From Escherichia phage SME50: a stretch of DNA of 64,000 nucleotides. Shown one piece after another: positions 3,842-63,986 of the stretch. How positions within the stretch are numbered: position 1 is the first letter of the stretch; each line of letters opens with the position of its first letter. The DNA is taken from the sequence record MT887289.1; one strand, 5' to 3'. The notes below the pieces were generated by a model. It saw nothing but the letters and a program-made list of their open reading frames with translations, was not told the DNA's origin and made no database searches. A program made the translations under genes and the position numbers.

Positions 3842-4387
3842 TCAAAAGTGTCCTTTTACTTGTGGAACATAAATTTCAAAAGTTGCTTTACCATCCTCTG
3901 ATGGTTTTGACTGTACCTTTGTAAATACACGACCATCATACAACTTCTCGAAGAAGTTTTCAAAAGGTAAATGCACAGTGACCTCTTCAGTAACTTTATG
4001 GAAAACTGTATGGAACACTACATCAGCATACGGTAAAGCATTGACAAGGACACCTGCACCACCAATTACAAAGACATCTTCATCAATAGAGCTATCAAGA
4101 TACTTCAAAAATGCTCCAAATGATTCTTTACTGGCTTTAGCATACATTACATCATCTTTTCCAAAGTCTATGCCTAAGTATGGTACAGAGTTTGTTAAGA
4201 TGAGGTTTGCACGTTCTGGTAAAGGTTTACTACCCAGAGTCTTAAAAGTCTCATTCCCCATTACTACTAAGTTGTTTTTAGTGAGTCTCTTAAACTCTTG
4301 CATGTCCTGTTTATGTCGAGGCCACGGCATACCAGTTGGAGTACCAAACTCACCATTTTCACCACTTGCAAAGATTAATTTAATCAT
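3842..4387 (-). CDS. folA: dihydrofolate reductase
   Basis: 181 aa; N-terminus MIKLIFA...GMPW and VMGNETF motif resemble DHFR; adjacent to thyA. Confidence 0.8.
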   Translation of the reverse strand: MIKLIFASGENGEFGTPTGMPWPRHKQDMQEFKRLTKNNLVVMGNETFKTLGSKPLPERANLILTNSVPYLGIDFGKDDVMYAKASKESFGAFLKYLDSSIDEDVFVIGGAGVLVNALPYADVVFHTVFHKVTEEVTVHLPFENFFEKLYDGRVFTKVQSKPSEDGKATFEIYVPQVKGHF

Positions 4388-4644
4388 TTTATAAATCCTT
4401 TCTTAATGAACCAGTTGATAACATTCTTCACAGCTTTATTGCTATGGTAGATTAAGTGTGGTGTAGGCTGGTATGAGCCATAGGCCCAGAATGATAGATG
4501 CTCACCACAACCAACACATGTAGTACTTTCTTCAGCTATATGACCATTAACAATCACATGAACTTCACCTTGCAAGTCTGTACACCCACAATGTGGACAA
4601 CGGATAGGTGTTCCATCAGACTCATAGCAGTGTTCAATTTTCAT
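4384..4644 (-). CDS. zinc-ribbon protein
   Basis: 86 aa; CPHCGC...CVGCGEH cysteine pairs. Confidence 0.4.
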   Translation of the reverse strand: MKIEHCYESDGTPIRCPHCGCTDLQGEVHVIVNGHIAEESTTCVGCGEHLSFWAYGSYQPTPHLIYHSNKAVKNVINWFIKKGFIK

Positions 4645-11062: not shown

Positions 11063-13792
11063 TTAGTGTACTTCAAGCCAGCTTTTGCCAACCTTACCAG
11101 TGCCTGTAACAAGCGTTTCTTTCTTAAGACCTAAGTTTTTAGAAGCTTGTCCATAATACCAGTCAGTAACTGCTTTCACATCTGCCGTCATACTTTCTGG
11201 ACATTCCCAACTCGTCTCATCGTGATATGCGCAGAGCAAACGAGCACCAATAGCTGGTTGACGACCATTCAACTTCATCAAACCTTCATCAATCATACGA
11301 CGACAAGCAAGGTTGATTGCCTCATTTTGAATCTGAGCCTCTGAACCCATCAAAAGATAGTTCAACAGTTTGTGTGGAGATTTACACCACAACCAAGCTC
11401 CAGCAACCTTTACAAAACCCCCTTTAGAGATTGCAGCAGTTTTACCAAACACCTCTTCAAGTGCCTTTTTAGTTGCTTTGTAGTCAGCTTCCAAGTCATC
11501 TAGCAACTTCTTAATTTTAGGCAAACGAATAAAGTAAGTCTGTTTAGTCAGTGCACCTTCCTGAGTAGTTGCAGCTTTAATCGTCTTAGCAAACTTCTCA
11601 TCACCTGCACCGAACAGTAGTGCATAGATACCATTCTTAGCTTTCTTACGACCCTTGCTAATCTCATGGAGAAGGTTCTCATCCTGAGTAGCTCGACAAG
11701 TCAAGATATCCTGCTCATCATTCAAGCTAAAGTAAATACTGTTCAGTGTGTGTGCATCAGTCCCTGAATAGACAACGTAAAGGTCGTTCTCAGAGTCATA
11801 GCGAAGGTACTTATCAATCTCTGGGTTGAGGTACTCATCAAAGTGTTTGCAGTAATAGCGTCCATCTTCTTGACGAATAAACTCAATCTCTTCTTTACCT
11901 TGCGTTACCGCTTTGGTGAAGTCTTTGTCACCCATAAAGTTACAAAGAAGAACTAGCTGGGCTGAGTTCATGTCTACAGAGACAACGTTAGTACCTTCCT
12001 CACAAATCCATACTGCCCTCATTGGTTCCCCATAGACAGCAGCACCAGACGGTACGTTTACAATACCATACTGTGTCATACGTCCAGTTGAAGTACCAAA
12101 TACCATTGCACCAGCACTAAGGCGACCATCAGGACGAATCTGGTTCAACCAACCTTTTTCATCATCCTTTGAGTTCTCAATAGTTCTGCGTCGGTGCATC
12201 AAAGTATAGTATTTCGCAATCTTCTGTCCAAGCTCACCCTCAATCGTATCATAAGATGATTCAGTGAGTTTTGGTGAAGTACGGATTAAGCAAGGCTCAA
12301 GCAAATCTGTGTATTTCTTCACAGACCAGTTATGCTCGATGTACTGAACACCCTCGTGTTCAACATAACTCAAACCACACCGTTCCACCATCTCCTGCCA
12401 CTTAGGATGCTTTGTAATCATCTTTTTGTTATCTTTGAAACGACAAACTTTGACAGGACGACCGTCAGAGTCTTTCTTGTAGTTCCAGTCATCTGGAATC
12501 CAACCAACTGATTTCAAGTAGTCTTTAACAACTGCTACCTGAGTCATACGAGAAACTTCGAACTCAATTGGTGTATATGGTGCATCAATCAAACCTGTGT
12601 AGCGACTTGACTCAAGCTCAAAGTGGTTAACGACATGGCTGTTATAGTACTTCACAGTTTTAACTGTTTTTACTGGCTTCCAGTCTTTGCACTTCTTACC
12701 AATCTTTGCATTCAACTCATTGCAAATTGCACGAGCATCCTTCATTGCTACAAAACCCTCCTTGTACTCTTCACCAGTTACAGAGTTGGTTGGTGTATAG
12801 CAATTCCGCTTTTCAATGTTAAAAATCTTTGTAGTTGGCTTACCAAATGGCTTGATTTCGTATGTCTGCATCTCACCGTTACGTACCTGTTGACGATACT
12901 TTGTCTTAGGGTACTTGGTAATTCTCTTCAATCCATCTGCATGACCGAATGCTTCAACATACTCATTCCAAGCTTTTGCAAACTCTTCTCCAGTGACTTT
13001 ACCTTTGGTCTTAATAGTTGGAGGAAGATGTGGTTCAACCTCTGAAGCAAGCTCGTTAGTCAACTTGTCAAGTTCCTTTACATGAAACTCCATAAGCTCT
13101 TTATCAGCTTTCCAACCATTGATAGCCTGTTGACTCATCCAGAAAGATGTTTCTTTAGCTCGCATGTAGGTTTCATAAGTGTCTATGCCACACTTCTTCA
13201 GCTTGAGATATTCATTGTCCAGTGCACGTTTAGTTTTGGCGTTAATACGGATATCTTCCACAACACGAGTGAAGATTTCTGCATTCCACACACCCCAATG
13301 TTCAATCTCTGGTTTACGTACACCAACACGAGCACCCCATGCTGCCAAGCCATGAGCACCTTTATAACCTTTTGGAGTTGGTCTATCCATCCACTGAACA
13401 CGAGACTGGATAAGAGAATCCTGAAAGAAATTACTCCACGGCTTACACTTTGGATTATCAAAGTTCCACAAATCAGGTGCAATGTGATTGAAAACCCACC
13501 AGTCATACCCCAGACCATTATGGATGCAAAGTCGTTTTGCCTTTAACGCAAACTCAATACCTTCACGCAAACCACCCTTAATGTACTTGGTATACTTGTG
13601 ACCGAGGATAGGTTCATCTGTAAAGACCCATACAGGCGGCTCTTCATCGTCAGATTTATAGTCTGCGAAAGCCATTACGTGCACTTTAGTGAACTCAAGG
13701 AGTAAACCATCAGTTTCTGTATCACCAACTAAATGTAAGTTTTTAAAATCTACGTTTTCCATTTTTACTCCCTCTAAAATCATTAACCTCAT
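11063..13792 (-). CDS. DNA polymerase, family A, with N-terminal 3'-5' exonuclease
   Basis: 909 aa; Exo I motif DTETDGL at N-terminus; Pol A motifs: SVDMNSAQLVLL (A), KNGIYALLFGAG (B), YHDE (C). Confidence 0.9.
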   Translation of the reverse strand: MRLMILEGVKMENVDFKNLHLVGDTETDGLLLEFTKVHVMAFADYKSDDEEPPVWVFTDEPILGHKYTKYIKGGLREGIEFALKAKRLCIHNGLGYDWWVFNHIAPDLWNFDNPKCKPWSNFFQDSLIQSRVQWMDRPTPKGYKGAHGLAAWGARVGVRKPEIEHWGVWNAEIFTRVVEDIRINAKTKRALDNEYLKLKKCGIDTYETYMRAKETSFWMSQQAINGWKADKELMEFHVKELDKLTNELASEVEPHLPPTIKTKGKVTGEEFAKAWNEYVEAFGHADGLKRITKYPKTKYRQQVRNGEMQTYEIKPFGKPTTKIFNIEKRNCYTPTNSVTGEEYKEGFVAMKDARAICNELNAKIGKKCKDWKPVKTVKTVKYYNSHVVNHFELESSRYTGLIDAPYTPIEFEVSRMTQVAVVKDYLKSVGWIPDDWNYKKDSDGRPVKVCRFKDNKKMITKHPKWQEMVERCGLSYVEHEGVQYIEHNWSVKKYTDLLEPCLIRTSPKLTESSYDTIEGELGQKIAKYYTLMHRRRTIENSKDDEKGWLNQIRPDGRLSAGAMVFGTSTGRMTQYGIVNVPSGAAVYGEPMRAVWICEEGTNVVSVDMNSAQLVLLCNFMGDKDFTKAVTQGKEEIEFIRQEDGRYYCKHFDEYLNPEIDKYLRYDSENDLYVVYSGTDAHTLNSIYFSLNDEQDILTCRATQDENLLHEISKGRKKAKNGIYALLFGAGDEKFAKTIKAATTQEGALTKQTYFIRLPKIKKLLDDLEADYKATKKALEEVFGKTAAISKGGFVKVAGAWLWCKSPHKLLNYLLMGSEAQIQNEAINLACRRMIDEGLMKLNGRQPAIGARLLCAYHDETSWECPESMTADVKAVTDWYYGQASKNLGLKKETLVTGTGKVGKSWLEVH

Positions 13793-14443: not shown

Positions 14444-15256
14444 ATGAATACTACTGTAGACCAGATGCTTGAAGAAAAAGGTATTGACGAAGCATTCTTA
14501 ATCAATGCCGTAGAAAGCATGGCTATGATTCTTCGTGGAAACAACTACACAGAACAGTTTATGCCTGCAAGCTATAACTTGCCTAAAGACAAGTCTGATA
14601 ACGGTGCTTTTGCAGAACAGGTTAATATGATGCTGTGTGATAAAACACTTGCTTTAGCATCTATCGTTGTAGGTGTTGATGCTCTTGCAGAGTTCATTTT
14701 CTATGAGATGCAGAAAAATGACTATATTGCCATGACCTCTGAAGAAAAAGACTCGCTACTGCTCTTAGGTTATGATGAGCTAGTTGACCTGTTAATTTCG
14801 TCAACAAGTGCTGTTATGGCTGCTCTTGAGAAGCGAATGGAAGAGAAGCTGTCACGATATGAAAAACTTGATTGGGGTGTAGAAGAGTTAAACCCACGAA
14901 TCAAAGAGATTATCCAGCAAACTAAAGACTCTTTAGCAGAAGCTGTGAAAGATGATTCTGTAGCTGATGTAGAACCACTACAGGTGAAGGTTGCTCTGAT
15001 GATTCCAGCTATCTCTACAATGATGAATATCGTTGCACTAATCCAACTTTCTCAGATGTTGGGTGTAACCATTGAGTTTGTTGAGGAGATGACTGGTGGT
15101 GTCAGTATGCAAGCAATCAATGATGTTTTGGTAAACATTGGCGCTTCAATCATTGAAGAGAAGCTTCGCATTAACTTTGGTGACGATTTTGTGAAGCAAG
15201 TCTCAGCTATGGCTGAAAAAGAGTATTCACAGATTACTAGTGACCAACTGCACTAA
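14444..15256 (+). CDS. hypothetical protein
   Basis: 270 aa; acidic. Confidence 0.5.
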   Translation: MNTTVDQMLEEKGIDEAFLINAVESMAMILRGNNYTEQFMPASYNLPKDKSDNGAFAEQVNMMLCDKTLALASIVVGVDALAEFIFYEMQKNDYIAMTSEEKDSLLLLGYDELVDLLISSTSAVMAALEKRMEEKLSRYEKLDWGVEELNPRIKEIIQQTKDSLAEAVKDDSVADVEPLQVKVALMIPAISTMMNIVALIQLSQMLGVTIEFVEEMTGGVSMQAINDVLVNIGASIIEEKLRINFGDDFVKQVSAMAEKEYSQITSDQLH

Positions 15257-57897: not shown

Positions 57898-58362
57898 TTA
57901 CTTTGGGTATACACTGTCAAGATAAATGTCAGCTTCCATTCTACGTCTGTTTTTCAGACCATTTGAAGTGACCTTCTTACCTTTGACTGTAACCTTGTTC
58001 CACCACTGCATAGCTTCTGCACAACCTACCTTGTTACCAGCATTGTGGCGCTTGATAAATGTAGACTCCTGCATAGCTGTGATACCGATGTTGTATGTTT
58101 CACTTACAAGTGCATCGAACTCATTCTGAGAAGTTGGAGCCTTGATAGCTTTATTCACTGCTGCAACAAACTTCTCAACATCTGCGAGAAGATACTGTTC
58201 AGCTTGTTCAGCCGTGATTTTCATACCCATCTTAACAGGTTTTCCGTCAATACGGATTGTACCATACCCGATTGTTGGGATTCCGGCAGAGTCTTCGTAA
58301 GCCTCTAACTTCAGACCTTCAAAGAACTTAATAGCTTCTAAACCTTTTCTTGAGAGTTGCAT
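57898..58362 (-). CDS. T4-type lysozyme (GH24 endolysin)
   Basis: 154 aa; FEGLKLEAYEDSAGIPTIGYGT matches T4 lysozyme catalytic region (Glu/Asp/Thr). Confidence 0.85.
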   Translation of the reverse strand: MQLSRKGLEAIKFFEGLKLEAYEDSAGIPTIGYGTIRIDGKPVKMGMKITAEQAEQYLLADVEKFVAAVNKAIKAPTSQNEFDALVSETYNIGITAMQESTFIKRHNAGNKVGCAEAMQWWNKVTVKGKKVTSNGLKNRRRMEADIYLDSVYPK

Positions 58363-59747
58363 TATGCCTCCCCTGCTGGGTTAACTGTAACTGTTGCCGC
58401 ATTAGATGTTACAGAGCCACCTGCACCAGTCACTACACAAGTGTAGCTTCCTGCATCAGCAGCAGTTGCACCTTCTTTGGTGTAAGTTGCAGTCGTTGCG
58501 TCTGGGATGACTTCCTCACCTTTCTTCCACTGGTAACCTGTTGCACCAGTTGCCACAACATTCAGCGTTAAGGTCTCACCTTCAGTGATTTCTTGATTGG
58601 CTGGTTGTTGAGTGATGACTGGAAGAGCATTAACGGTAACAGTTGCAGCATTAGATGTTACTGTTGTACCACCTGCACCAGTAACTACACAGGTATATGA
58701 ACCAGCATCGGCAGGGTCTGCTTTAGCTTTCGTGTAAGTTGCACCAGTTGCACTAGGGATGTTCACATTATCTTTCTTCCATTGATAACCTGTTGCACCT
58801 GTGGCCTCAATACTCAGCGTCAAACTGCCACCTTCATTGACTACTTGGTTAGTTGGCTGCTTGGTAATAACTGGCAAAGCATTTACCGTGACAGTTGCAG
58901 GGTTAGAAGTAACAGAACCTCCAGCACCAGTTACAACGCAAGTGTAAGAACCTGCATCTGCTGGAAGCGCACCAGATTTGCTATAGTTAGCATTTGTAGC
59001 TGATGGGATGTCAGAGCCATCTTTCTTCCATTGGTAGCCTGTTGCACCTGTTGCAGTAACTGATAAGTCAATGTTTCCACCCTCATTAATGGTCTGGCTA
59101 GAAGGTTGCTGTGTAATCACAGGCAGTGCGTTCACAGTAACTGTTGCTGCATCTGAGGTGACACTTGTTCCACCATCTCCAGATACAGCACAAGTGTATG
59201 AACCAGCGTCAGAAGGTGCTACAGATTGTTTTGTATAGGTTGCAGATGTGGCACTGGAGATATTCTCACCATCCTTCTTCCATTGATACCCAGTGGCATT
59301 AGTTGCGAGAACACTTAGGGTAAGTGCTCCACCTTCATTGACTGTTTGGTTTGTCGGTTGCTGAGTAATTACTGGTGGCTTAATGGCATCCTTCAACTTA
59401 GCATTCAACATTGAGAACGGTTTAACTCTTGCCAACCATTCACAATACACTGTGTCAACGTCTTTACCATTGATAATTGCATATTGTAAATCCATGAAGA
59501 AGTCAGAAGTTCTCATTTGAGCACCGACGCTGTAAAGCAAATCATCACTAAAAGGAACTTTGTAGTCTGGTTTGTAGTCAAACTTCTTAACCTCTGCGAT
59601 ATCAGCTTCAGGCCAATATGAGCTATAGGTGAGTGGTAAAATAGCTTCTTGATATGTTCTAAAATCATATCTCTTACCAGCCTTTACATTTGCGATGAAG
59701 CCCTTCACAAATTCTTTGAAGTCTGGGTAAGTCTTTGCTTTAATCAT
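58362..59747 (-). CDS. Ig-like repeat protein (Hoc-like decoration/adhesin candidate)
   Basis: 461 aa; N-terminal domain paralogous to ORF 59744..60115; four tandem roughly 90-aa Ig-like repeats each with YQWKKDG...DAGSYTC...VTVNALPVITQQP. Confidence 0.65.
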   Translation of the reverse strand: MIKAKTYPDFKEFVKGFIANVKAGKRYDFRTYQEAILPLTYSSYWPEADIAEVKKFDYKPDYKVPFSDDLLYSVGAQMRTSDFFMDLQYAIINGKDVDTVYCEWLARVKPFSMLNAKLKDAIKPPVITQQPTNQTVNEGGALTLSVLATNATGYQWKKDGENISSATSATYTKQSVAPSDAGSYTCAVSGDGGTSVTSDAATVTVNALPVITQQPSSQTINEGGNIDLSVTATGATGYQWKKDGSDIPSATNANYSKSGALPADAGSYTCVVTGAGGSVTSNPATVTVNALPVITKQPTNQVVNEGGSLTLSIEATGATGYQWKKDNVNIPSATGATYTKAKADPADAGSYTCVVTGAGGTTVTSNAATVTVNALPVITQQPANQEITEGETLTLNVVATGATGYQWKKGEEVIPDATTATYTKEGATAADAGSYTCVVTGAGGSVTSNAATVTVNPAGEA

Positions 59748-60115
59748 TTCTTTTTAGCCTCTAAACGTGCGTTTAATCTAAAATAGCCTTTATGTTGTGG
59801 AGACACATCACCAACAACGATACCTTCAACTTTATAACCTTTACCGATTACATACTGGATATCCATAAGAAATGTACCAAGTCCTACAATGTGGAACATT
59901 GGATATAATAACTTATCTGAATCTGGGAGATTAATATCTGGGTTGTAGGTAGGTTGTTTACTAGTAGGTGTAATATCTTCTTCAGGCCATTTACTTAGTC
60001 TCCATGTCAAAGGTGTTGGGATAACATCATTAAGATTGTACCTCCCACCATTCTCCACGGAATGGATATAGGATTGTAGGAAGCAATAAAAGTCTTTTGC
60101 ACTCTTAGCTTTCAT
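59744..60115 (-). CDS. paralog of N-terminal domain of the Ig-like protein
   Basis: 123 aa; shared blocks KAK..DF, WPE.DI, SD.LLY, MD(I/L)QY.I..G. Confidence 0.55.
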   Translation of the reverse strand: MKAKSAKDFYCFLQSYIHSVENGGRYNLNDVIPTPLTWRLSKWPEEDITPTSKQPTYNPDINLPDSDKLLYPMFHIVGLGTFLMDIQYVIGKGYKVEGIVVGDVSPQHKGYFRLNARLEAKKK

Positions 60116-61372: not shown

Positions 61373-61744
61373 ATGAAAAACAGAACAAACAAAGGCCAGT
61401 TTAAAAAAGGCCAGTCTGGTAACCCATCTGGAAGACCGAAAGGTTCTCGTAACAAAAGCTCACTTGTAAAAGCTCAACTGACCATTGATAATTCTGCTGA
61501 GTTTGCTGCAAAGTTGTTTGAAGCGATTGTTACAAGGGACGCTGCTAAGCTTGCAGAGTTCGGGTTAAACACAGATGACGTAACCATCAAGAGCATGATT
61601 GAGGTCGGTAAAACTATCTTTACTCACTCAGCAGGTGAGATGAAAGCACTTGCAGCAGACACTAAGAAGACTTCTGATAATGGTGGTCAGTCACAGACAG
61701 ATAACAAACCAACGTTCTCTGCTGTAGCGACTCTCAAAAAATAA
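61373..61744 (+). CDS. hypothetical protein with GNPSGRPKG motif
   Basis: 123 aa; basic N-terminus. Confidence 0.5.
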   Translation: MKNRTNKGQFKKGQSGNPSGRPKGSRNKSSLVKAQLTIDNSAEFAAKLFEAIVTRDAAKLAEFGLNTDDVTIKSMIEVGKTIFTHSAGEMKALAADTKKTSDNGGQSQTDNKPTFSAVATLKK

Positions 61745-61824
61745 TTTTAAAAGGTGTTGACAGACTCTACAAAGTTGCTCTAAAGTCTGTCACATCAACC
61801 AACAATGAGAGAAGAGAGTAAAAT

Positions 61825-63240
61825 ATGAGCGAATTATTTAAACATGCGCACCTTCATGCAGGTCGAACTGAAAATGGTGCTGTAAACCATACTTCATCAA
61901 TGTCTGCTCTGGTAGACTTCTACAAAGCCGCTGGCTCAAGCCGTAGCAATGTAGAAATCTTACCAGACCTGTTCTACAAAGCTTTGCGTGAGGATGTTGA
62001 TGTTGCAGTTCGTATTTTACTGCATATGCGAGATGTACGAGAAGGTATGGGTGAGCGTAAAGCTTTCCGAACTGTTTTACTTCAAGCGATTGAAGATAAG
62101 GTTTTAGAACCTACACAGGTTCTTCGCATTATGGATAAGATTGCAGAACTTGGTCGTTTTGATGACTTCAAAATCTTTGTAGGTACTCGTTTTGAGACAG
62201 ATGCCTTCAAACATTTAGAAGCAGCATTACTAGACCCTGCAACAGCAGGTTTAGCGGCTAAGTGGTTACCACGAGTAAAACCACGCCACAAACAGTTTGT
62301 AAAACGTTTCTGTAAGTTTGCAAACTTAAGTGAGAAGGAGTATCGCACACTGTTATCTGCACTGTCCGATACGGTTGAGCAAAAAATCTCTGCTAATGAG
62401 TTTGGTAAGATTGACTACAGCAAGATTCCTTCACTCGCTGCTGCACGTTACCAAAAGCTCTTTAACCGTAAAGATGGTGAACGTTACAAAGCTTATATCG
62501 AGTCACTCTCAAAGGGTGAGGCTAAGATTAACGCTGGTGCCGTTTACCCATACGATGTGATTAAATCTATCAAGTATGGTAATGCAGGTGTTGCTAATGA
62601 GCAGTGGAAAGCACTACCAAACTGGATGGCAGAGGGTGAAAACATCTTGTGTATGACTGATGTTTCAAGCTCAATGTCTTGGGTGAATCTTGGTTCAATC
62701 ACTGCCCTTGATATTGGCGTATCACTTGCCTTGTATGTAGCAGAACGCAATACAGGTTGCTTTAAGAATGAGTTAATGGTTTATTCAACAAACCCTCACT
62801 TCATCGAACTGAGTGGTGATTTGAGAAACCGTCACCGTCAGGTAATGCGTCATGTTGAATATGGTTCAACTAACTTACAAGCAGCTTTTGACCGCATTCT
62901 TGAAATAGGTAAGAGAAACAACTTGACTCAGAAAGATATGCCAAGTAAGCTTATTATCTTCTCTGATATGGAGTTTAATCAGGTTGATGGTGCAAATGGT
63001 CGTACAAACTTTGAAGCAATTCAGAGTAAGTACAAAAAAGCTGGATACGAAATGCCACAACTAGTATTCTGGTACTTAGCAAACCGTAATGGTACTTGCG
63101 AAGTATCTGTTAAAGATAATGGTGTAGCAATGGTATCAGGGTTCTCTCCAGCCACTTTAAAAGCTCTGCTTGGTGGTGAGAAGTTTGACCCAATCAGCGT
63201 AATGCTCAAAGCAGTAATGATTGACCGTTACATCTGGTAA
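61825..63240 (+). CDS. vWA-like domain protein (MIDAS motif)
   Basis: 471 aa; MIDAS-like DVSSSMS; conserved N-terminal TENGAV...LHMRDVREGMGERKAFR block. Confidence 0.5.
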   Translation: MSELFKHAHLHAGRTENGAVNHTSSMSALVDFYKAAGSSRSNVEILPDLFYKALREDVDVAVRILLHMRDVREGMGERKAFRTVLLQAIEDKVLEPTQVLRIMDKIAELGRFDDFKIFVGTRFETDAFKHLEAALLDPATAGLAAKWLPRVKPRHKQFVKRFCKFANLSEKEYRTLLSALSDTVEQKISANEFGKIDYSKIPSLAAARYQKLFNRKDGERYKAYIESLSKGEAKINAGAVYPYDVIKSIKYGNAGVANEQWKALPNWMAEGENILCMTDVSSSMSWVNLGSITALDIGVSLALYVAERNTGCFKNELMVYSTNPHFIELSGDLRNRHRQVMRHVEYGSTNLQAAFDRILEIGKRNNLTQKDMPSKLIIFSDMEFNQVDGANGRTNFEAIQSKYKKAGYEMPQLVFWYLANRNGTCEVSVKDNGVAMVSGFSPATLKALLGGEKFDPISVMLKAVMIDRYIW

Positions 63241-63258: not shown

Positions 63259-63287
63259 TTGACAATGTGTTTGATACCCTTTAATAT
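63259..63287 (+). promoter_or_regulatory. sigma70-like promoter upstream of tRNA cluster
   Basis: -35 ttgaca, 17-nt spacer, -10 taatat; embedded in inverted repeat gggtat...ataccc. Confidence 0.55.
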
Positions 63288-63349: not shown

Positions 63350-63378
63350 TTGACAATCACTAAAAAATAATGTTAAAG
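63350..63378 (+). promoter_or_regulatory. second putative promoter upstream of tRNA cluster
   Basis: -35 ttgaca, 17 nt, -10 ttaaag. Confidence 0.4.
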
Positions 63379-63405
63379 TGGTTACATAGAGTTTGAAAAG
63401 TTTAT

Positions 63406-63482
63406 CTCTGTTTAGCTCAGCTTGGTAGAGCGTTCCGTTTGGGGCGGTAAGGCCGGAGGTTCAAGTCCTCCAACAGAGACCA
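63406..63482 (+). tRNA. tRNA-Pro (anticodon UGG), CCA encoded
   Basis: hand-folded cloverleaf: acceptor ctctgtt/aacagag, D-arm gctc...gagc, anticodon loop tttgggg, T-arm ggagg-ttcaagt-cctcc; one U-U mismatch in anticodon stem. Confidence 0.6.
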
Positions 63483-63489
63483 AATTAAT

Positions 63490-63567
63490 GTTCCAGTAGA
63501 CAAAACGGTAAAGTCACCACTCTTTCAAAGTGGATATTTGAGGGTTCAAATCCCTTCTGGAACGCCA
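63490..63567 (+). tRNA. tRNA-Glu (anticodon UUC), CCA encoded
   Basis: acceptor gttccag/ctggaac, anticodon stem ccact/agtgg with loop ctttcaa, T-loop ttcaaat. Confidence 0.65.
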
Positions 63568-63658
63568 GTTTTGACAGAAGACCAATTGCAGCAAACTTAA
63601 TCTTATTCATCTGACACGAAATCGGACAAAGAAGATATTTGGTCTGGTCATTAAGAAT

Positions 63659-63735
63659 TGCGGGTATAGAGAAAGGGCGTCTCACATGTCTCATTAGCAT
63701 GGTATCGGCAGGTTCGACTCCTGCACCCGCCTCCA
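63659..63735 (+). tRNA. tRNA-Met family (anticodon CAU), CCA encoded
   Basis: T-arm gcagg-ttcgact-cctgc, anticodon stem catgt/gcatg with loop ctcatta; position 1-72 appears mismatched, so could be initiator-like or Ile2-like. Confidence 0.55.
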
Positions 63736-63812
63736 ATTTTGCAGAAGACCGTATTCAGCAACAAAATACTTTTTGCGGATAAAAGAAAAAACACGGTCTG
63801 GCAATGTATTAA

Positions 63813-63886
63813 GGTTAGGAAGCACATAAGGTATGTGCGGTCGCCTGTTAAGCGAATGGCACAGGGTTCGAATCCCTGACTAACCG
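63813..63886 (+). tRNA. tRNA-Asn (anticodon GUU)
   Basis: acceptor ggttagg/actaacc, D-stem gcac/gtgc, anticodon loop ctgttaa, T-arm caggg-ttcgaat-ccctg; CCA not encoded. Confidence 0.6.
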
Positions 63887-63898
63887 CAAAATTTAAAT

Positions 63899-63986
63899 GT
63901 GTCGTTATCCCGTAGATGGTAGCGGTGGGGACTGTAAATCCCTTGTCATTGAGACTCGGTAGGTTCGACTCCTACACGGCACACCA
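63899..63986 (+). tRNA. tRNA-Tyr (anticodon GUA), long variable arm, CCA encoded
   Basis: acceptor gtgtcgt/acggcac, anticodon loop ctgtaaa, long variable arm ttgtcattgagactcgg, T-arm gtagg-ttcgact-cctac; resembles bacterial tRNA-Tyr. Confidence 0.7.

What the first reader, a model, noticed from the sequence alone, without database searches (positions are those of the whole stretch)
61825..63240. vWA/MIDAS protein immediately upstream of the tRNA cluster
A 471-aa protein with a MIDAS-like DxSxS motif (DVSSSMS) and a conserved N-terminal block sits directly 5' of five tRNA genes and two structured spacers. vWA-containing Ro60/TROVE-like proteins are known to associate with tRNA-like Y RNAs; the juxtaposition is suggestive but unproven here.
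Basis: inference. Interest (0 to 1): 0.4.

Follow-up and report, generated by a model that had tools for sequence, protein, structure and literature searches.

The report
Phage Ro60-like protein with partner RNAs
The gene encodes a phage relative of the RNA-binding Ro60 protein, already shown in a sister phage to block a bacterial defence, and the two odd "spacers" among the tRNA genes next to it belong to a widespread, apparently undescribed family of small RNAs that are its likely partners.

Summary
A 471-aa ORF (61825-63240, +) with a complete MIDAS motif sits 165 nt upstream of five tRNA genes separated by two non-tRNA spacers.

The window is a Felixounavirus. The protein is 98% identical to Bas63 gp130, which a 2024 preprint describes as Ro60-like, notes to lie upstream of the tRNAs, and shows to counter the Ppl defence. 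The protein part is therefore already known.

- **Family and fold:** it belongs to DUF2828/DUF7788 (PHROG 850, "RNA-binding protein"). Its full-length model matches only Ro60 structures. Its vWA domain is profile-related to Ro60's, but no TROVE signal is found by sequence.
- **What appears new:** the two spacers (63572-63650, 63739-63804) belong to an RNA family with a covarying 7-bp closing stem, a UWCAGCAA motif and a 3' CUG.
- **How widespread:** a model trained on other phages finds exactly these two elements in the window. It gives 90 hits, all on the gene strand, in 55 of 76 distant loci, mostly within 500 nt of the gene. It also hits isolates infecting Campylobacter, Staphylococcus, Listeria and Mycobacterium.
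- **Resemblances:** longer copies carry YrlA-like permuted tRNA domains. Short copies closely match the consensus of Dictyostelium Class I RNAs.

No binding has been demonstrated.

The parts
61373..61744 (+). DUF5681 protein gene (123 aa), co-oriented, immediately upstream
   Evidence: ORF. Pfam PF18932 E 2.2e-14. The same family sits upstream of the homologue in distant locus L007. It is not a general neighbour.
61757..61786 (+). sigma-70-like promoter (TTGACA-18-TAAAGT) in front of the Ro60-like gene
   Evidence: Consensus scan, 10/12 matches. Sequence shown. Consensus match only.
61825..63240 (+). Ro60-like protein gene (DUF2828 + DUF7788 / vWA-MIDAS), orthologue of Bas63 gp130
   Evidence: ORF. 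Pfam PF25043 E 1.8e-43 and PF11443 E 5e-29. PHROG 850 E 3e-183. 461/471 identical to bas63_0130. Fold matches Ro60.
62659..62673 (+). codons of the MIDAS DxSxS motif (D279-V-S281-S-S283); further MIDAS residues T349 (62869-62871) and D381 (62965-62967)
   Evidence: Invariant in 49 homologues. Aligned with DVSGSM of true Ro60 proteins by hhalign.
63259..63287 (+). promoter-like site 1 in the 165-nt gap before tRNA-Pro
   Evidence: TTGACA-17-TAATAT, 10/12.
63350..63379 (+). promoter-like site 2 before tRNA-Pro
   Evidence: TTGACA-18-TAAAGT with TG, 10/12.
63406..63567 (+). tRNA-Pro(tgg) and tRNA-Glu(ttc)
   Evidence: ARAGORN. Rfam tRNA 57.7 and 60.6 bits.
63572..63650 (+). E1, a Y-like / Class-I-like small RNA element: outer helix UGAC/GUCA, internal loop AGA/G, helix AGACCAA/UUGGUCU, motif UUGCAGCAA (63586-63594), 3' CUG
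   Evidence: CM R1, trained on other phages, scores 28.7 bits, E 1.6e-5 at 63577-63648. The MFE fold contains the closing helices. Paralogues with covarying outer helix are shown.
63659..63735 (+). tRNA-Met(cat)
   Evidence: ARAGORN.
63739..63804 (+). E2, second Y-like / Class-I-like element: outer helix UUGC/GCAA, loop AGA/G, helix AGACCGU/ACGGUCU, motif AUUCAGCAA (63753-63761), 3' CUG
   Evidence: CM R1 scores 38.3 bits, E 2.3e-8 at 63744-63802. Rfam Dicty_Class_I_RNA aligns full length at 24 bits, below the gathering score of 41.5. Fold.
63813..63986 (+). tRNA-Asn(gtt) and tRNA-Tyr(gta). The array, plus elements E3 and E4 (E4 has a permuted tRNA-like core), continues beyond the window end
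   Evidence: ARAGORN. The continuation is read in the 99%-identical locus L002: E3 at 12224-12295, E4 at about 12303-12450.

Best explanation
The ORF is the Felixounavirus orthologue of Bas63 gp130. It is an early-expressed protein with Ro60-like architecture: an N-terminal alpha-helical repeat domain plus a C-terminal Ro60-type vWA domain with an intact MIDAS. It belongs to the large DUF2828/DUF7788 phage family. I propose that it works as a Ro60-type ribonucleoprotein. It would bind small phage-encoded RNAs that share a closing stem (5'-AGR...YCU-3'), a single-stranded UWCAGCAA motif directly after the 5' stem strand, and a 3' CUG. Two such RNAs (E1, E2) lie in the window between tRNAs and are presumably released by tRNA-processing enzymes. 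The variable interior of these RNAs would act like the effector module of Y RNAs, and takes several forms: an A-rich loop, a permuted tRNA-like domain as in YrlA, an acceptor-less tRNA body, or other hairpins. The RNP would serve RNA and tRNA surveillance and counter-defence during infection. What is shown: the gene, the motifs, the fold similarity, the orthology, the existence, covariation and synteny of the RNA family, and (by others) the anti-Ppl phenotype of the orthologue. What is inferred: the protein-RNA binding, the processing, and the cellular role of the RNP.
For: - **Protein family:** Pfam DUF7788 and DUF2828; PHROG 850 'RNA-binding protein'.
- **Fold:** the model has pLDDT 88.7 and pTM 0.88. 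The top 11 PDB matches are all Ro60, including phage phiLo Ro60 (9KOP/9L5Y), Xenopus Ro60 and D. radiodurans Rsr.
- **Sequence relation to Ro60:** hhalign against true Ro60 (TROVE + vWA_Ro60) gives 88% and E 3e-6 for the whole protein, and 93% and E 2.6e-7 for the vWA half. The VYPYDV/VHPINV linker and DVSGSM are aligned.
- **Orthology:** 98% identity and identical synteny with bas63_0130. That protein is reported as Ro60-like and as a Ppl counter.
- **Paralogues in the array:** four copies in the Felixounavirus tRNA array share a covarying outer helix: TGAC/GTCA, TTGC/GCAA, GAGC/GCTC, TTAC/GTAA.
- **Covariance model:** CM R1 was built from 30 elements of other phages. It finds only E1 and E2 in the 64-kb window. 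Across 76 loci it gives 110 hits at E<=1, 108 of them on the gene strand. At E<=0.01 there are 90 hits (60 not in the training set) in 55 of 76 loci. 53 of these lie within 500 nt of the gene, where only 6% of the sequence lies.
- **Covariation:** 98% of cells are paired. There are 241 double-sided changes against 63+-14 in shuffles. All 7 pairs covary, and slid controls pair at about 40%.
- **Independent replication:** further loci and cultured phages of Campylobacter, Staphylococcus, Listeria, Mycobacterium and Bacillus give 15 of 15 hits on the gene strand, flanking the gene. Bas63 also has the elements.
- **Independence from tRNAs:** 25 of 39 loci without any tRNA still carry the element.
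- **tRNA-like cargo:** long copies carry T arm, closed acceptor hairpin and D arm in the YrlA order. Rfam YrlA hits them at 28.7-38.9 bits.
- **Specificity control:** a canonical Ro60 phage (Bxz1) has a YrlA core next to its gene but no R1 hit in 50 kb.
Against: - No TROVE domain is detectable by sequence.
- The N-terminal domain modelled alone has no significant PDB match; the best Ro60 match has TMq 0.44 at E 1.4.
- The RNA motif (UWCAGCAA) differs from the GNCGAA/CGAA motif of known Y RNAs (PMC4201824; PMC12135203).
- Thermodynamic stability of E1 and E2 is unremarkable (z -1.2 and -2.2).
- Bas63 gp130 expressed alone from a plasmid or from the T7 genome rescues T7 on a Ppl host. The phage RNAs are therefore not needed for that phenotype.
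- 21 of 76 loci have no short-form hit at E<=0.01, although several of these carry long forms.
- No binding, expression or processing data exist for the RNAs.
Confidence: 0.68

Rival explanations
1. The protein acts alone as a direct inhibitor of the Ppl defence. It could bind Ppl through the vWA/MIDAS face, or thread and cap single-stranded 3' ends in a Ro60-like ring so that the Ppl 3'-5' ssDNA exonuclease cannot use them. On this reading the neighbouring small RNAs are functionally unrelated and merely share the early tRNA transcription unit.
For: gp130 alone, from a plasmid or inserted into T7, restores T7 plaquing on a ppl strain, and deleting g130 cripples Bas63 on ppl (bioRxiv 10.1101/2024.10.10.617714). 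Ppl is described as an ssDNA 3'-5' exonuclease that senses 3'-OH ends (PMC12904381). From established knowledge, Ro60's central hole binds single-stranded 3' ends.
Against: This does not explain why the RNA module accompanies the gene, on the same strand and within 500 nt, in phages of at least five bacterial phyla and in loci without tRNAs. It also does not explain why no protein neighbour is conserved while the RNA is. The two roles are not mutually exclusive.
Confidence: 0.2
2. The ligands are the phage tRNAs themselves. The protein would be a tRNA chaperone or quality-control factor for the adjacent tRNA array, and the spacer elements would be processing signals of the polycistronic tRNA precursor.
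For: tRNA arrays lie on the same strand next to the gene in many lineages: 36 of 75 loci, with 293 tRNA/tmRNA genes on the gene strand and 0 on the other. This also holds in Bacillus, Campylobacter and Listeria phages. Some elements enclose a tRNA body (L033:9734-9833, L039:9757-9854).
Against: 39 of 75 loci have no tRNA within the flanks, and 25 of those still carry the element. The elements often stand alone directly after or before the gene with no tRNA to process (for example L084 7446-7509; Staphylococcus phage 6ec). The conserved single-stranded motif and 5'/3' ends are typical of a protein-bound RNA rather than of a spacer.
Confidence: 0.1
3. The resemblance to Ro60 is only a generic helical-repeat plus vWA arrangement. 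The protein would be a metal-dependent protein-protein adaptor (a vWA co-chaperone type) with no RNA role.
For: There is no TROVE hit by sequence. The N-terminal domain alone matches only generic helical repeats at E>0.1.
Against: All full-length PDB matches are Ro60 and nothing else. The vWA is specifically closest to the Ro60 vWA. No MoxR/AAA+ partner is found among 150 neighbouring ORFs. YrlA-like RNAs sit next to the gene.
Confidence: 0.05

Closest known systems
Bas63 (JohannRWettstein) gp130, Felixounavirus (bioRxiv 10.1101/2024.10.10.617714)
   Same: 461/471 residues are identical, the length is the same, and the position directly upstream of tRNA-Pro/Glu/Met/Asn/Tyr is the same. It has been described as structurally Ro60-like, with the suggestion that some neighbouring 'tRNAs' might be Y RNAs. 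It is an experimentally shown counter of the Ppl defence.
   Different: Nothing material at the protein level. The preprint did not identify the RNAs. The candidates found here are the unannotated spacers, not the annotated tRNAs.
Ro60/Rsr with Y RNAs (YrlA/YrlB, Yrn1), including mycobacteriophage Bxz1 gp220 and Thermus phage phiLo Ro60 with Yrl1/Yrl2
   Same: Helical-repeat domain plus vWA/MIDAS architecture. The vWA is profile-related. Small RNAs are encoded within about 1 kb on the same strand, with several RNAs sharing one binding module but carrying different cargo. Some cargo is a permuted tRNA-like domain in V-T-AS-D order (PMC4201824; PMC12135203).
   Different: There is no Pfam TROVE or vWA_Ro60 hit; the protein falls in a different Pfam family pair (DUF2828/DUF7788). 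The helical domain is about 100 residues shorter. The RNA motif is UWCAGCAA next to a plain 7-bp stem, instead of GNCGAA/CGAA in a bulged stem. The R1 model does not hit the Bxz1 locus. The elements are embedded in tRNA arrays.
Class I RNAs of Dictyostelia (Rfam RF01414; Kjellin et al. 2021, PMC7919456)
   Same: Length about 60 nt. A 6-7 bp covarying terminal stem. A conserved 5' G paired to the C of a 3' CUG(U). A motif directly after the 5' stem strand, with Rfam consensus CUUACAGCAA against phage consensus uUACAGCAA. An A/U-rich variable remainder. All six RF01414 hits seen in my Rfam searches fall exactly on R1-defined elements on the gene strand.
   Different: Scores of 19.7-24.4 bits are below the gathering score of 41.5. 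The Dictyostelium genes are eukaryotic and have their own upstream promoter element (DUSE). They are reported as restricted to Dictyostelia. The known direct binder is the RRM protein Rnp1A/CIBP. I could not test for a link to a DUF2828 protein in Dictyostelium.
Stable non-tRNA RNAs in phage tRNA clusters (T4 species 1 and 2, rnaC/rnaD) - from my own knowledge, not tested here
   Same: Small stable RNAs of unknown function encoded between tRNA genes and processed with them.
   Different: T4 has no DUF2828 gene as far as I know. No sequence comparison was made.

Membership tests
DUF2828/DUF7788 phage family (PHROG 850) | Pfam PF11443 and PF25043 above gathering score; full-length PHROG 850 match | tested here: met
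   PF25043 scores 148.8 bits (cut-off 27.1). PF11443 scores 101.8 bits (cut-off 29). PHROG 850 gives E 2.9e-183 over residues 1-471.
Bas63 gp130 orthologue (Ppl counter-defence protein) | High identity and conserved genomic position | tested here: met
   98% identity over 471 aa. Same neighbours: DUF5681 gene upstream, tRNA-Pro/Glu/Met/Asn/Tyr downstream.
Bas63 gp130 orthologue (Ppl counter-defence protein) | Protects the phage from the Ppl system | not testable with these tools
   Known only from the preprint for Bas63.
Ro60 / TROVE family | TROVE domain (PF05731) detectable by sequence profile | tested here: not met
   No Pfam TROVE hit at E<=1. A profile of 49 homologues finds no Ro60 chain in the PDB sequences. 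hhalign of the N-terminal halves gives E 0.25, probability 0.2%. The positive control Bxz1 gp220 hits TROVE at E 9e-50.
Ro60 / TROVE family | Ring of helical (HEAT) repeats closed by a vWA domain (fold) | tested here: inconclusive
   For the full-length model the top 11 PDB matches are all Ro60, with TMq 0.44-0.61 and 504-570 aligned columns. The N-terminal domain modelled alone has no significant match; Ro60 9l5y gives the highest TMq (0.44) but at E 1.4.
Ro60 / TROVE family | Ro60-type vWA domain with MIDAS | tested here: met
   hhalign of the vWA halves gives 93%, E 2.6e-7. D279, S281, S283, T349 and D381 are invariant. Pfam itself files the domain under DUF7788, not vWA_Ro60.
Ro60 / TROVE family | Cognate small RNAs encoded nearby on the same strand | tested here: met
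   90 CM hits at E<=0.01, all on the gene strand, 53 within 500 nt of the gene. Two are in the window.
Ro60 / TROVE family | Protein binds Y RNA and misfolded RNA | not testable with these tools
YrlA-type Y RNA (Rfam RF02553) | Score above gathering (69 bits); GNCGAA motif near the 5' end; V-T-AS-D tRNA-like domain | tested here: not met
   The window elements E1 and E2 have no tRNA-like domain and no YrlA hit. Long elements in related loci have the T-AS-D core and score 28.7-38.9 bits, but the outer stem and motif do not fit the model.
Dictyostelium Class I RNA (Rfam RF01414) | 5' G, 6-bp terminal stem, 11-nt motif with U3/C6/C9/A10/A11, 3' CUG(U), about 60 nt | tested here: met
   E2 aligns full length to the model, with GACCGU/ACGGUC as stem, AUU-CAGCAA as motif and a CUG end. 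E1 reads AAUUGCAGCAA, with all five invariant positions present. The feature list is taken from PMC7919456.
Dictyostelium Class I RNA (Rfam RF01414) | Score above the Rfam gathering threshold (41.5 bits) | tested here: not met
   19.7-24.4 bits.

The most novel reading that the evidence does not exclude
The stem-UWCAGCAA-CUG RNAs that accompany DUF2828 Ro60-like genes in phages may be the same RNA class as the abundant Class I RNAs of dictyostelid amoebae. Those RNAs are so far considered unique to Dictyostelia and have no known mechanism. DUF2828/DUF7788 proteins also occur in giant viruses and in eukaryotes (plant papers). On this reading, DUF2828/DUF7788 proteins with these RNAs would form a second, cross-kingdom branch of Ro60/Y-RNA-type ribonucleoproteins. 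The uncharacterised Class I RNA pull-down protein DDB_G0281243 (bioRxiv 10.1101/2020.04.05.026054) would then be a candidate DUF2828 family member.
Probability: 0.3. Interest if true: 0.85.

Novelty: new variant of a known kind. Interest (0 to 1): 0.6.

Why it matters
The protein itself is not new. Its orthologue in Bas63 is already described as Ro60-like and as a transferable inhibitor of the Ppl defence. Public records already call family members "RNA-binding" or "Ro-like".

What this analysis adds is a concrete, testable RNA partner.

- **Scale:** the RNA family is found next to the gene in most of 76 distant loci. The protein family occurs in 709 of 50,697 phage records. The RNA itself is absent from Rfam and unannotated in genome records.
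- **A definite experiment:** the vague suggestion that "some tRNAs may be Y RNAs" becomes a test of whether gp130 binds E1-E4 through the CAGCAA motif.
- **Phage genome organisation:** it would explain part of why tRNA arrays and Ro-like genes travel together.
- **A second recognition code:** it would define a second recognition mode within Ro60-type RNPs.
- **Dictyostelium:** it offers the first mechanistic lead for Class I RNAs.

It also flags spurious small CDS annotations laid over these RNAs.

Tried and rejected
- **Sequence searches of the PDB.** Both the single protein and a 49-sequence profile found nothing relevant.
- **NCBIfam and PADLOC.** No hits.
- **TROVE homology of the N-terminal half.** hhalign gave E 0.25. 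A separate AlphaFold model plus Foldseek gave no significant hit. I therefore do not claim TROVE membership.
- **A loose regular expression for stem plus motif.** Background was too high: 341 hits on the gene strand, 299 on the other, 165 in shuffles. A stricter pattern gave 149, 38 and about 19. I then replaced it with a covariance model.
- **A conserved protein partner.** Among 150 neighbouring ORFs no family occurs more than 4 times. RNA ligase, metallophosphatase, Band_7, RNase HII, HAD_SAK_2 and a CCA-enzyme-like head domain occur only sporadically.
- **Rfam at the E4 element of L002.** No YrlA hit, only a 22-bit partial tRNA match.
- **Is Dictyostelium DDB_G0281243 a DUF2828 protein?** Avesson et al. 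2011 and Aspegren et al. 2004 are not held. No other paper mentions the gene. I had no way to reach eukaryotic family members with the capped protein searches, so one protein search and the representative search were left unused.
- **Thermodynamic folding of E1 and E2.** The expected helices form but z-scores are weak. The case rests on comparative evidence.
- **A cis-regulatory or terminator reading of the elements.** Rejected because copies lie both up- and downstream of the gene. Copies also occur 5-9 kb away inside tRNA arrays.
Full report
**1. The observation**

The ORF is real: 61825-63240 on the + strand, ATG start, 471 aa, containing CMTDVSSSMSW. Five tRNA genes follow on the same strand: Pro 63406, Glu 63490, Met 63659, Asn 63813 and Tyr 63899. 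Two gaps of 91 and 77 nt between them are not tRNAs.

In an alignment of 49 homologues at 42-89% identity, D279, S281, S283, T349 and D381 are invariant. That is a complete MIDAS motif. Several N-terminal blocks are also invariant: TxNG, RDxRxGxGER, GRxDD and KW.

A sigma-70-like promoter (TTGACA-18-TAAAGT) lies 40 nt upstream of the start codon. Two more lie in the 165-nt gap before tRNA-Pro. The gene heads a rightward block that diverges from the leftward lysis and tail genes.

**2. What the window is, and prior art**

The region is 98-99% identical to many Felixounavirus genomes. Some records call the gene "RNA-binding protein" or "vWFA protein".

The protein is 461/471 identical to bas63_0130 of phage Bas63 (JohannRWettstein, MZ501086), which has identical neighbours. 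A 2024 preprint (bioRxiv 10.1101/2024.10.10.617714) reports the following for gp130:
- It is structurally similar to Ro60.
- It lies directly upstream of the tRNA genes, and some of these "tRNAs" might be Y RNAs.
- Deleting g130 cripples Bas63 on hosts carrying the Ppl defence.
- gp130 alone rescues T7 on such hosts.

Ppl is described elsewhere as an ssDNA 3'-5' exonuclease that senses 3'-OH ends (PMC12904381).

**3. The protein**

- **Family assignment.** Pfam assigns DUF7788 (E 1.8e-43), DUF2828 (E 5e-29) and a sub-threshold VWA_2, with no TROVE hit at E<=1. PHROG 850 "RNA-binding protein" matches end to end.
- **Full-length fold.** The AlphaFold model built from the alignment is confident (pLDDT 88.7, pTM 0.88). 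It has helices from residues 28-263 and an alpha/beta vWA domain from 274-471. Against the PDB, the 11 best matches are all Ro60 proteins aligned over their full length. They include Thermus phage phiLo Ro60 (9KOP, 9L5Y), Xenopus Ro60 with and without RNA, and D. radiodurans Rsr. E-values run from 5e-8 to 2e-6 and TMq from 0.44 to 0.61. All further hits are isolated vWA domains with TMq 0.21-0.26.
- **Viral structure library.** The nearest relatives are DUF2828/DUF7788 proteins of a jumbo phage and of giant viruses. An annotated "Ro-like" actinophage protein follows at E 1e-7.
- **Profile comparison with true Ro60.** I took Bxz1 gp220 (TROVE + vWA_Ro60 by Pfam) and 24 relatives. Profile-profile comparison links the two families at 88% and E 3e-6. 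For the vWA half alone it gives 93% and E 2.6e-7. The link covers the vWA domain and the helix before it.
- **N-terminal half.** This gives no signal by hhalign (E 0.25). Modelled alone (pLDDT 80.8), it finds only generic helical repeats. Ro60 9l5y has the highest TMq (0.44) but a non-significant E-value.

I therefore call the protein Ro60-like in architecture and in its vWA domain. It is a member of DUF2828/DUF7788. TROVE membership is not shown.

**4. Distribution and context**

tblastn finds the family in 709 of 50,697 phage records. These include KVP40-type vibriophages and Campylobacter, Listeria (A511 gp57), Staphylococcus, Bacillus and Enterococcus phages, cyanophages, and cluster-L-type mycobacteriophages. 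In the mycobacteriophages it is already annotated "Ro-like RNA binding protein".

In 75 distant metagenomic loci, 36 contain tRNA or tmRNA genes. All 293 are on the gene's strand, and they often directly abut the gene. The same holds in isolates.

No protein neighbour is conserved. Among 150 flanking ORFs the commonest Pfam families occur 3-4 times. RNA-repair-type genes (Rnl1, metallophosphatase, Band_7, HAD_SAK_2, CCA-enzyme head domain) appear only sporadically.

**5. The RNA elements**

The two in-window spacers share their ends. The 99%-identical locus L002, which extends beyond the window, has four such elements:
- E1 and E2, the copies also present in the window.
- E3 at L002 12224-12295.
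- E4 at about L002 12303-12450.

Each has an outer 4-bp helix that covaries between copies (TGAC/GTCA, TTGC/GCAA, GAGC/GCTC, TTAC/GTAA). This is followed by an AGA/G internal loop, the helix AGACCRN/NYGGTCT, and then WTWCAGCAA.

E4 encloses a hairpin, a T arm (GAAGGTTCGATTCCTTC), a closed acceptor-like hairpin (CTCGGC-AGAT-GTCGAG) and a D arm. This is the V-T-AS-D order that defines YrlA Y RNAs (PMC4201824).

Orphan T arms next to the gene in many distant loci sit in elements of the same plan. Their closing stems differ in sequence but stay complementary. The cargo between motif and 3' stem varies:
- A-rich loops of about 35-50 nt.
- Permuted tRNA-like domains.
- tRNA bodies lacking the acceptor stem.
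- Other hairpin modules.

The general consensus is 5'-(A)AGRNNNN-(N)UWCMGCAA-cargo-N'N'N'N'YCU-G(A/U).

**6. Statistical tests of the RNA family**

A strict pattern gives 149 elements on the gene strand, 38 on the other and about 19 in shuffles.

I built a covariance model (R1) from 30 short elements, none from Felixounaviruses. Results:
- **Window.** In the 64-kb window it finds E2 (38.3 bits, E 2.3e-8) and E1 (28.7 bits, E 1.6e-5). Nothing else is significant.
- **Distant loci.** In 1.24 Mb from 76 loci it gives 110 hits at E<=1, 108 of them on the gene strand. At E<=0.01 there are 90 hits, 60 outside the training set, in 55 loci. 53 lie within 500 nt of the gene, where 6% of the sequence lies.
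- **Covariation.** 98% of cells are paired. There are 241 double-sided changes against 63+-14 in shuffles. All seven pairs covary. Slid registers pair at about 40%. The alignment is model-fitted, which favours the structure, but the margins are large.
- **Independent loci.** Loci fetched by another route also have hits directly after the gene (L084, E 1e-9; L086).
- **Cultured phages.** Phages of five host phyla have hits, 15 of 15 on the gene strand, in the gaps flanking the gene. Bas63 has hits as well.
- **Loci without tRNAs.** 25 of the 39 loci that lack tRNAs still carry the element.
- **Negative control.** Bxz1 has a canonical Ro60 gene and a YrlA core 190 nt upstream of it, but no R1 hit in 50 kb.

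**7. Relation to known RNA families**

Rfam has no family that reaches its gathering score on these elements.
- **Long forms.** These get sub-threshold full-length YrlA hits: L077 at 36.7 bits, L072 at 38.9 and 28.7 bits. The T-AS-D core fits, but the outer stems do not.
- **Short forms.** These get sub-threshold full-length hits to Dicty_Class_I_RNA at 19.7-24.4 bits. All six such hits in my searches coincide with R1 elements.

The two consensus sequences were derived independently and read as follows:
- Rfam: GaUcuC-CUUACAGCAA-A/U-rich-GagAuC-UG.
- R1: AAAGGAUgc-uUACAGCAA-A/U-rich-gcAUCC-UGau.

The published key features of Class I RNAs are all present in the phage elements (PMC7919456):
- About 60 nt long.
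- A covarying 6-bp terminal stem.
- An invariant 5' G paired with the C of a 3' CUGU.
- A motif with U3, C6, C9, A10 and A11.

That paper reports the class as unique to Dictyostelia and does not mention Ro60 or Y RNAs. Its preprint lists an uncharacterised pull-down protein, DDB_G0281243. I could not check that protein's domains. This remains a hypothesis.

**8. Mechanism**

The most likely reading (about 0.68) is a Ro60-type RNP. The protein would recognise the closing stem plus the single-stranded CAGCAA motif. The cargo would recruit or mimic tRNA-handling factors. The RNAs would be released from the tRNA precursor.

The strongest counter-evidence is that gp130 alone suffices against Ppl in T7. 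The anti-Ppl activity may therefore be RNA-independent. One possibility is capping of single-stranded 3' ends in the ring, or direct inhibition of Ppl. The RNP may serve another role, such as RNA or tRNA surveillance or decoy functions.

By analogy, phiLo Ro60 binds two phage Yrl RNAs and host PNPase (PMC12135203).

**9. Verdict**

- The protein is a known kind.
- The associated RNA family, its breadth and its likeness to Class I RNAs appear to be new and are directly testable.

Noticed in passing
L089 1465-2016 (Listeria phage A511, DQ003638.2, about 26.2-26.7 kb): A ROOL RNA match (Rfam RF03087, 87.5 bits, E 3e-16, just under the gathering score of 99.1). It lies between tRNA-Pro and the DUF2828 gene gp57, on the same strand and unannotated in the record.
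   Followed up: no
L023 1317-1767; L027 15822-16176; L030 16119-16479; L032 16694-17067; L047 13168-13521; L057 18753-19121: Phage-encoded tmRNA genes lie 3-7 kb from the DUF2828 gene on the same strand in several distant loci.
   Followed up: no
L077 3231-3307, L078 4374-4450, L027 20038-20110, L079 14760-14833: Suppressor-type tRNAs lie close to the gene: anticodon tta (ochre) 821 nt downstream in L077/L078, and cta (amber, called 'Pyl') in L027 and L079. This hints at stop-codon recoding in these phages.
   Followed up: no
L023 about 4280-4400: A tRNA-like sequence in normal order (acceptor, D arm, then T arm, acceptor 3' strand and CCA-like end). Its anticodon region is replaced by a long insert containing TTTACAGCG, which may be a non-permuted variant of the element or an intron-bearing tRNA.
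   Followed up: no
L001 8652-8828 (Phi87_09), L098 16749-16901 (bas63_0137), L001 9543-9722 and others: Public Felixounavirus records carry small 'hypothetical protein' CDSs laid over tRNA genes and over the E elements, often on the opposite strand. These are probably spurious calls. UAB_Phi87 also lacks annotation of tRNA-Met and tRNA-Asn and marks tRNA-Tyr as a pseudogene.
   Followed up: partly
window 58362-59747 (-): A 461-aa protein with four tandem Ig-like repeats of about 90 aa (…ALPVITQQP…GATGYQWKK…AGSYTC…). It shares its N-terminal ~120 aa with the adjacent 123-aa ORF at 59744-60115. Relatives annotate it as a tail or immunoglobulin-like domain protein.
   Followed up: no
L040 2982-3017: A DUF805b RNA motif match (RF02914, 30.1 bits against a gathering score of 35.6, E 1.3e-4). 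It lies about 100 nt downstream of a short E element and 470 nt after the DUF2828 gene.
   Followed up: no
window 14903-14962 (+): A weak hit of the R1 model (16.4 bits, E 0.065) with a CCAGCAA motif and an imperfect stem, far from the gene. It is probably chance.
   Followed up: no
L008 3133-3232, L011 149-280, L014 1265-1373, L022 9734-9828: One cargo type recurs in four loci of one phage group: a conserved block 'gaacctttctggaggggaaagcaaaaactcgcc' inside the stem-CAGCAA frame. It has an unknown fold and may be a distinct effector module.
   Followed up: no
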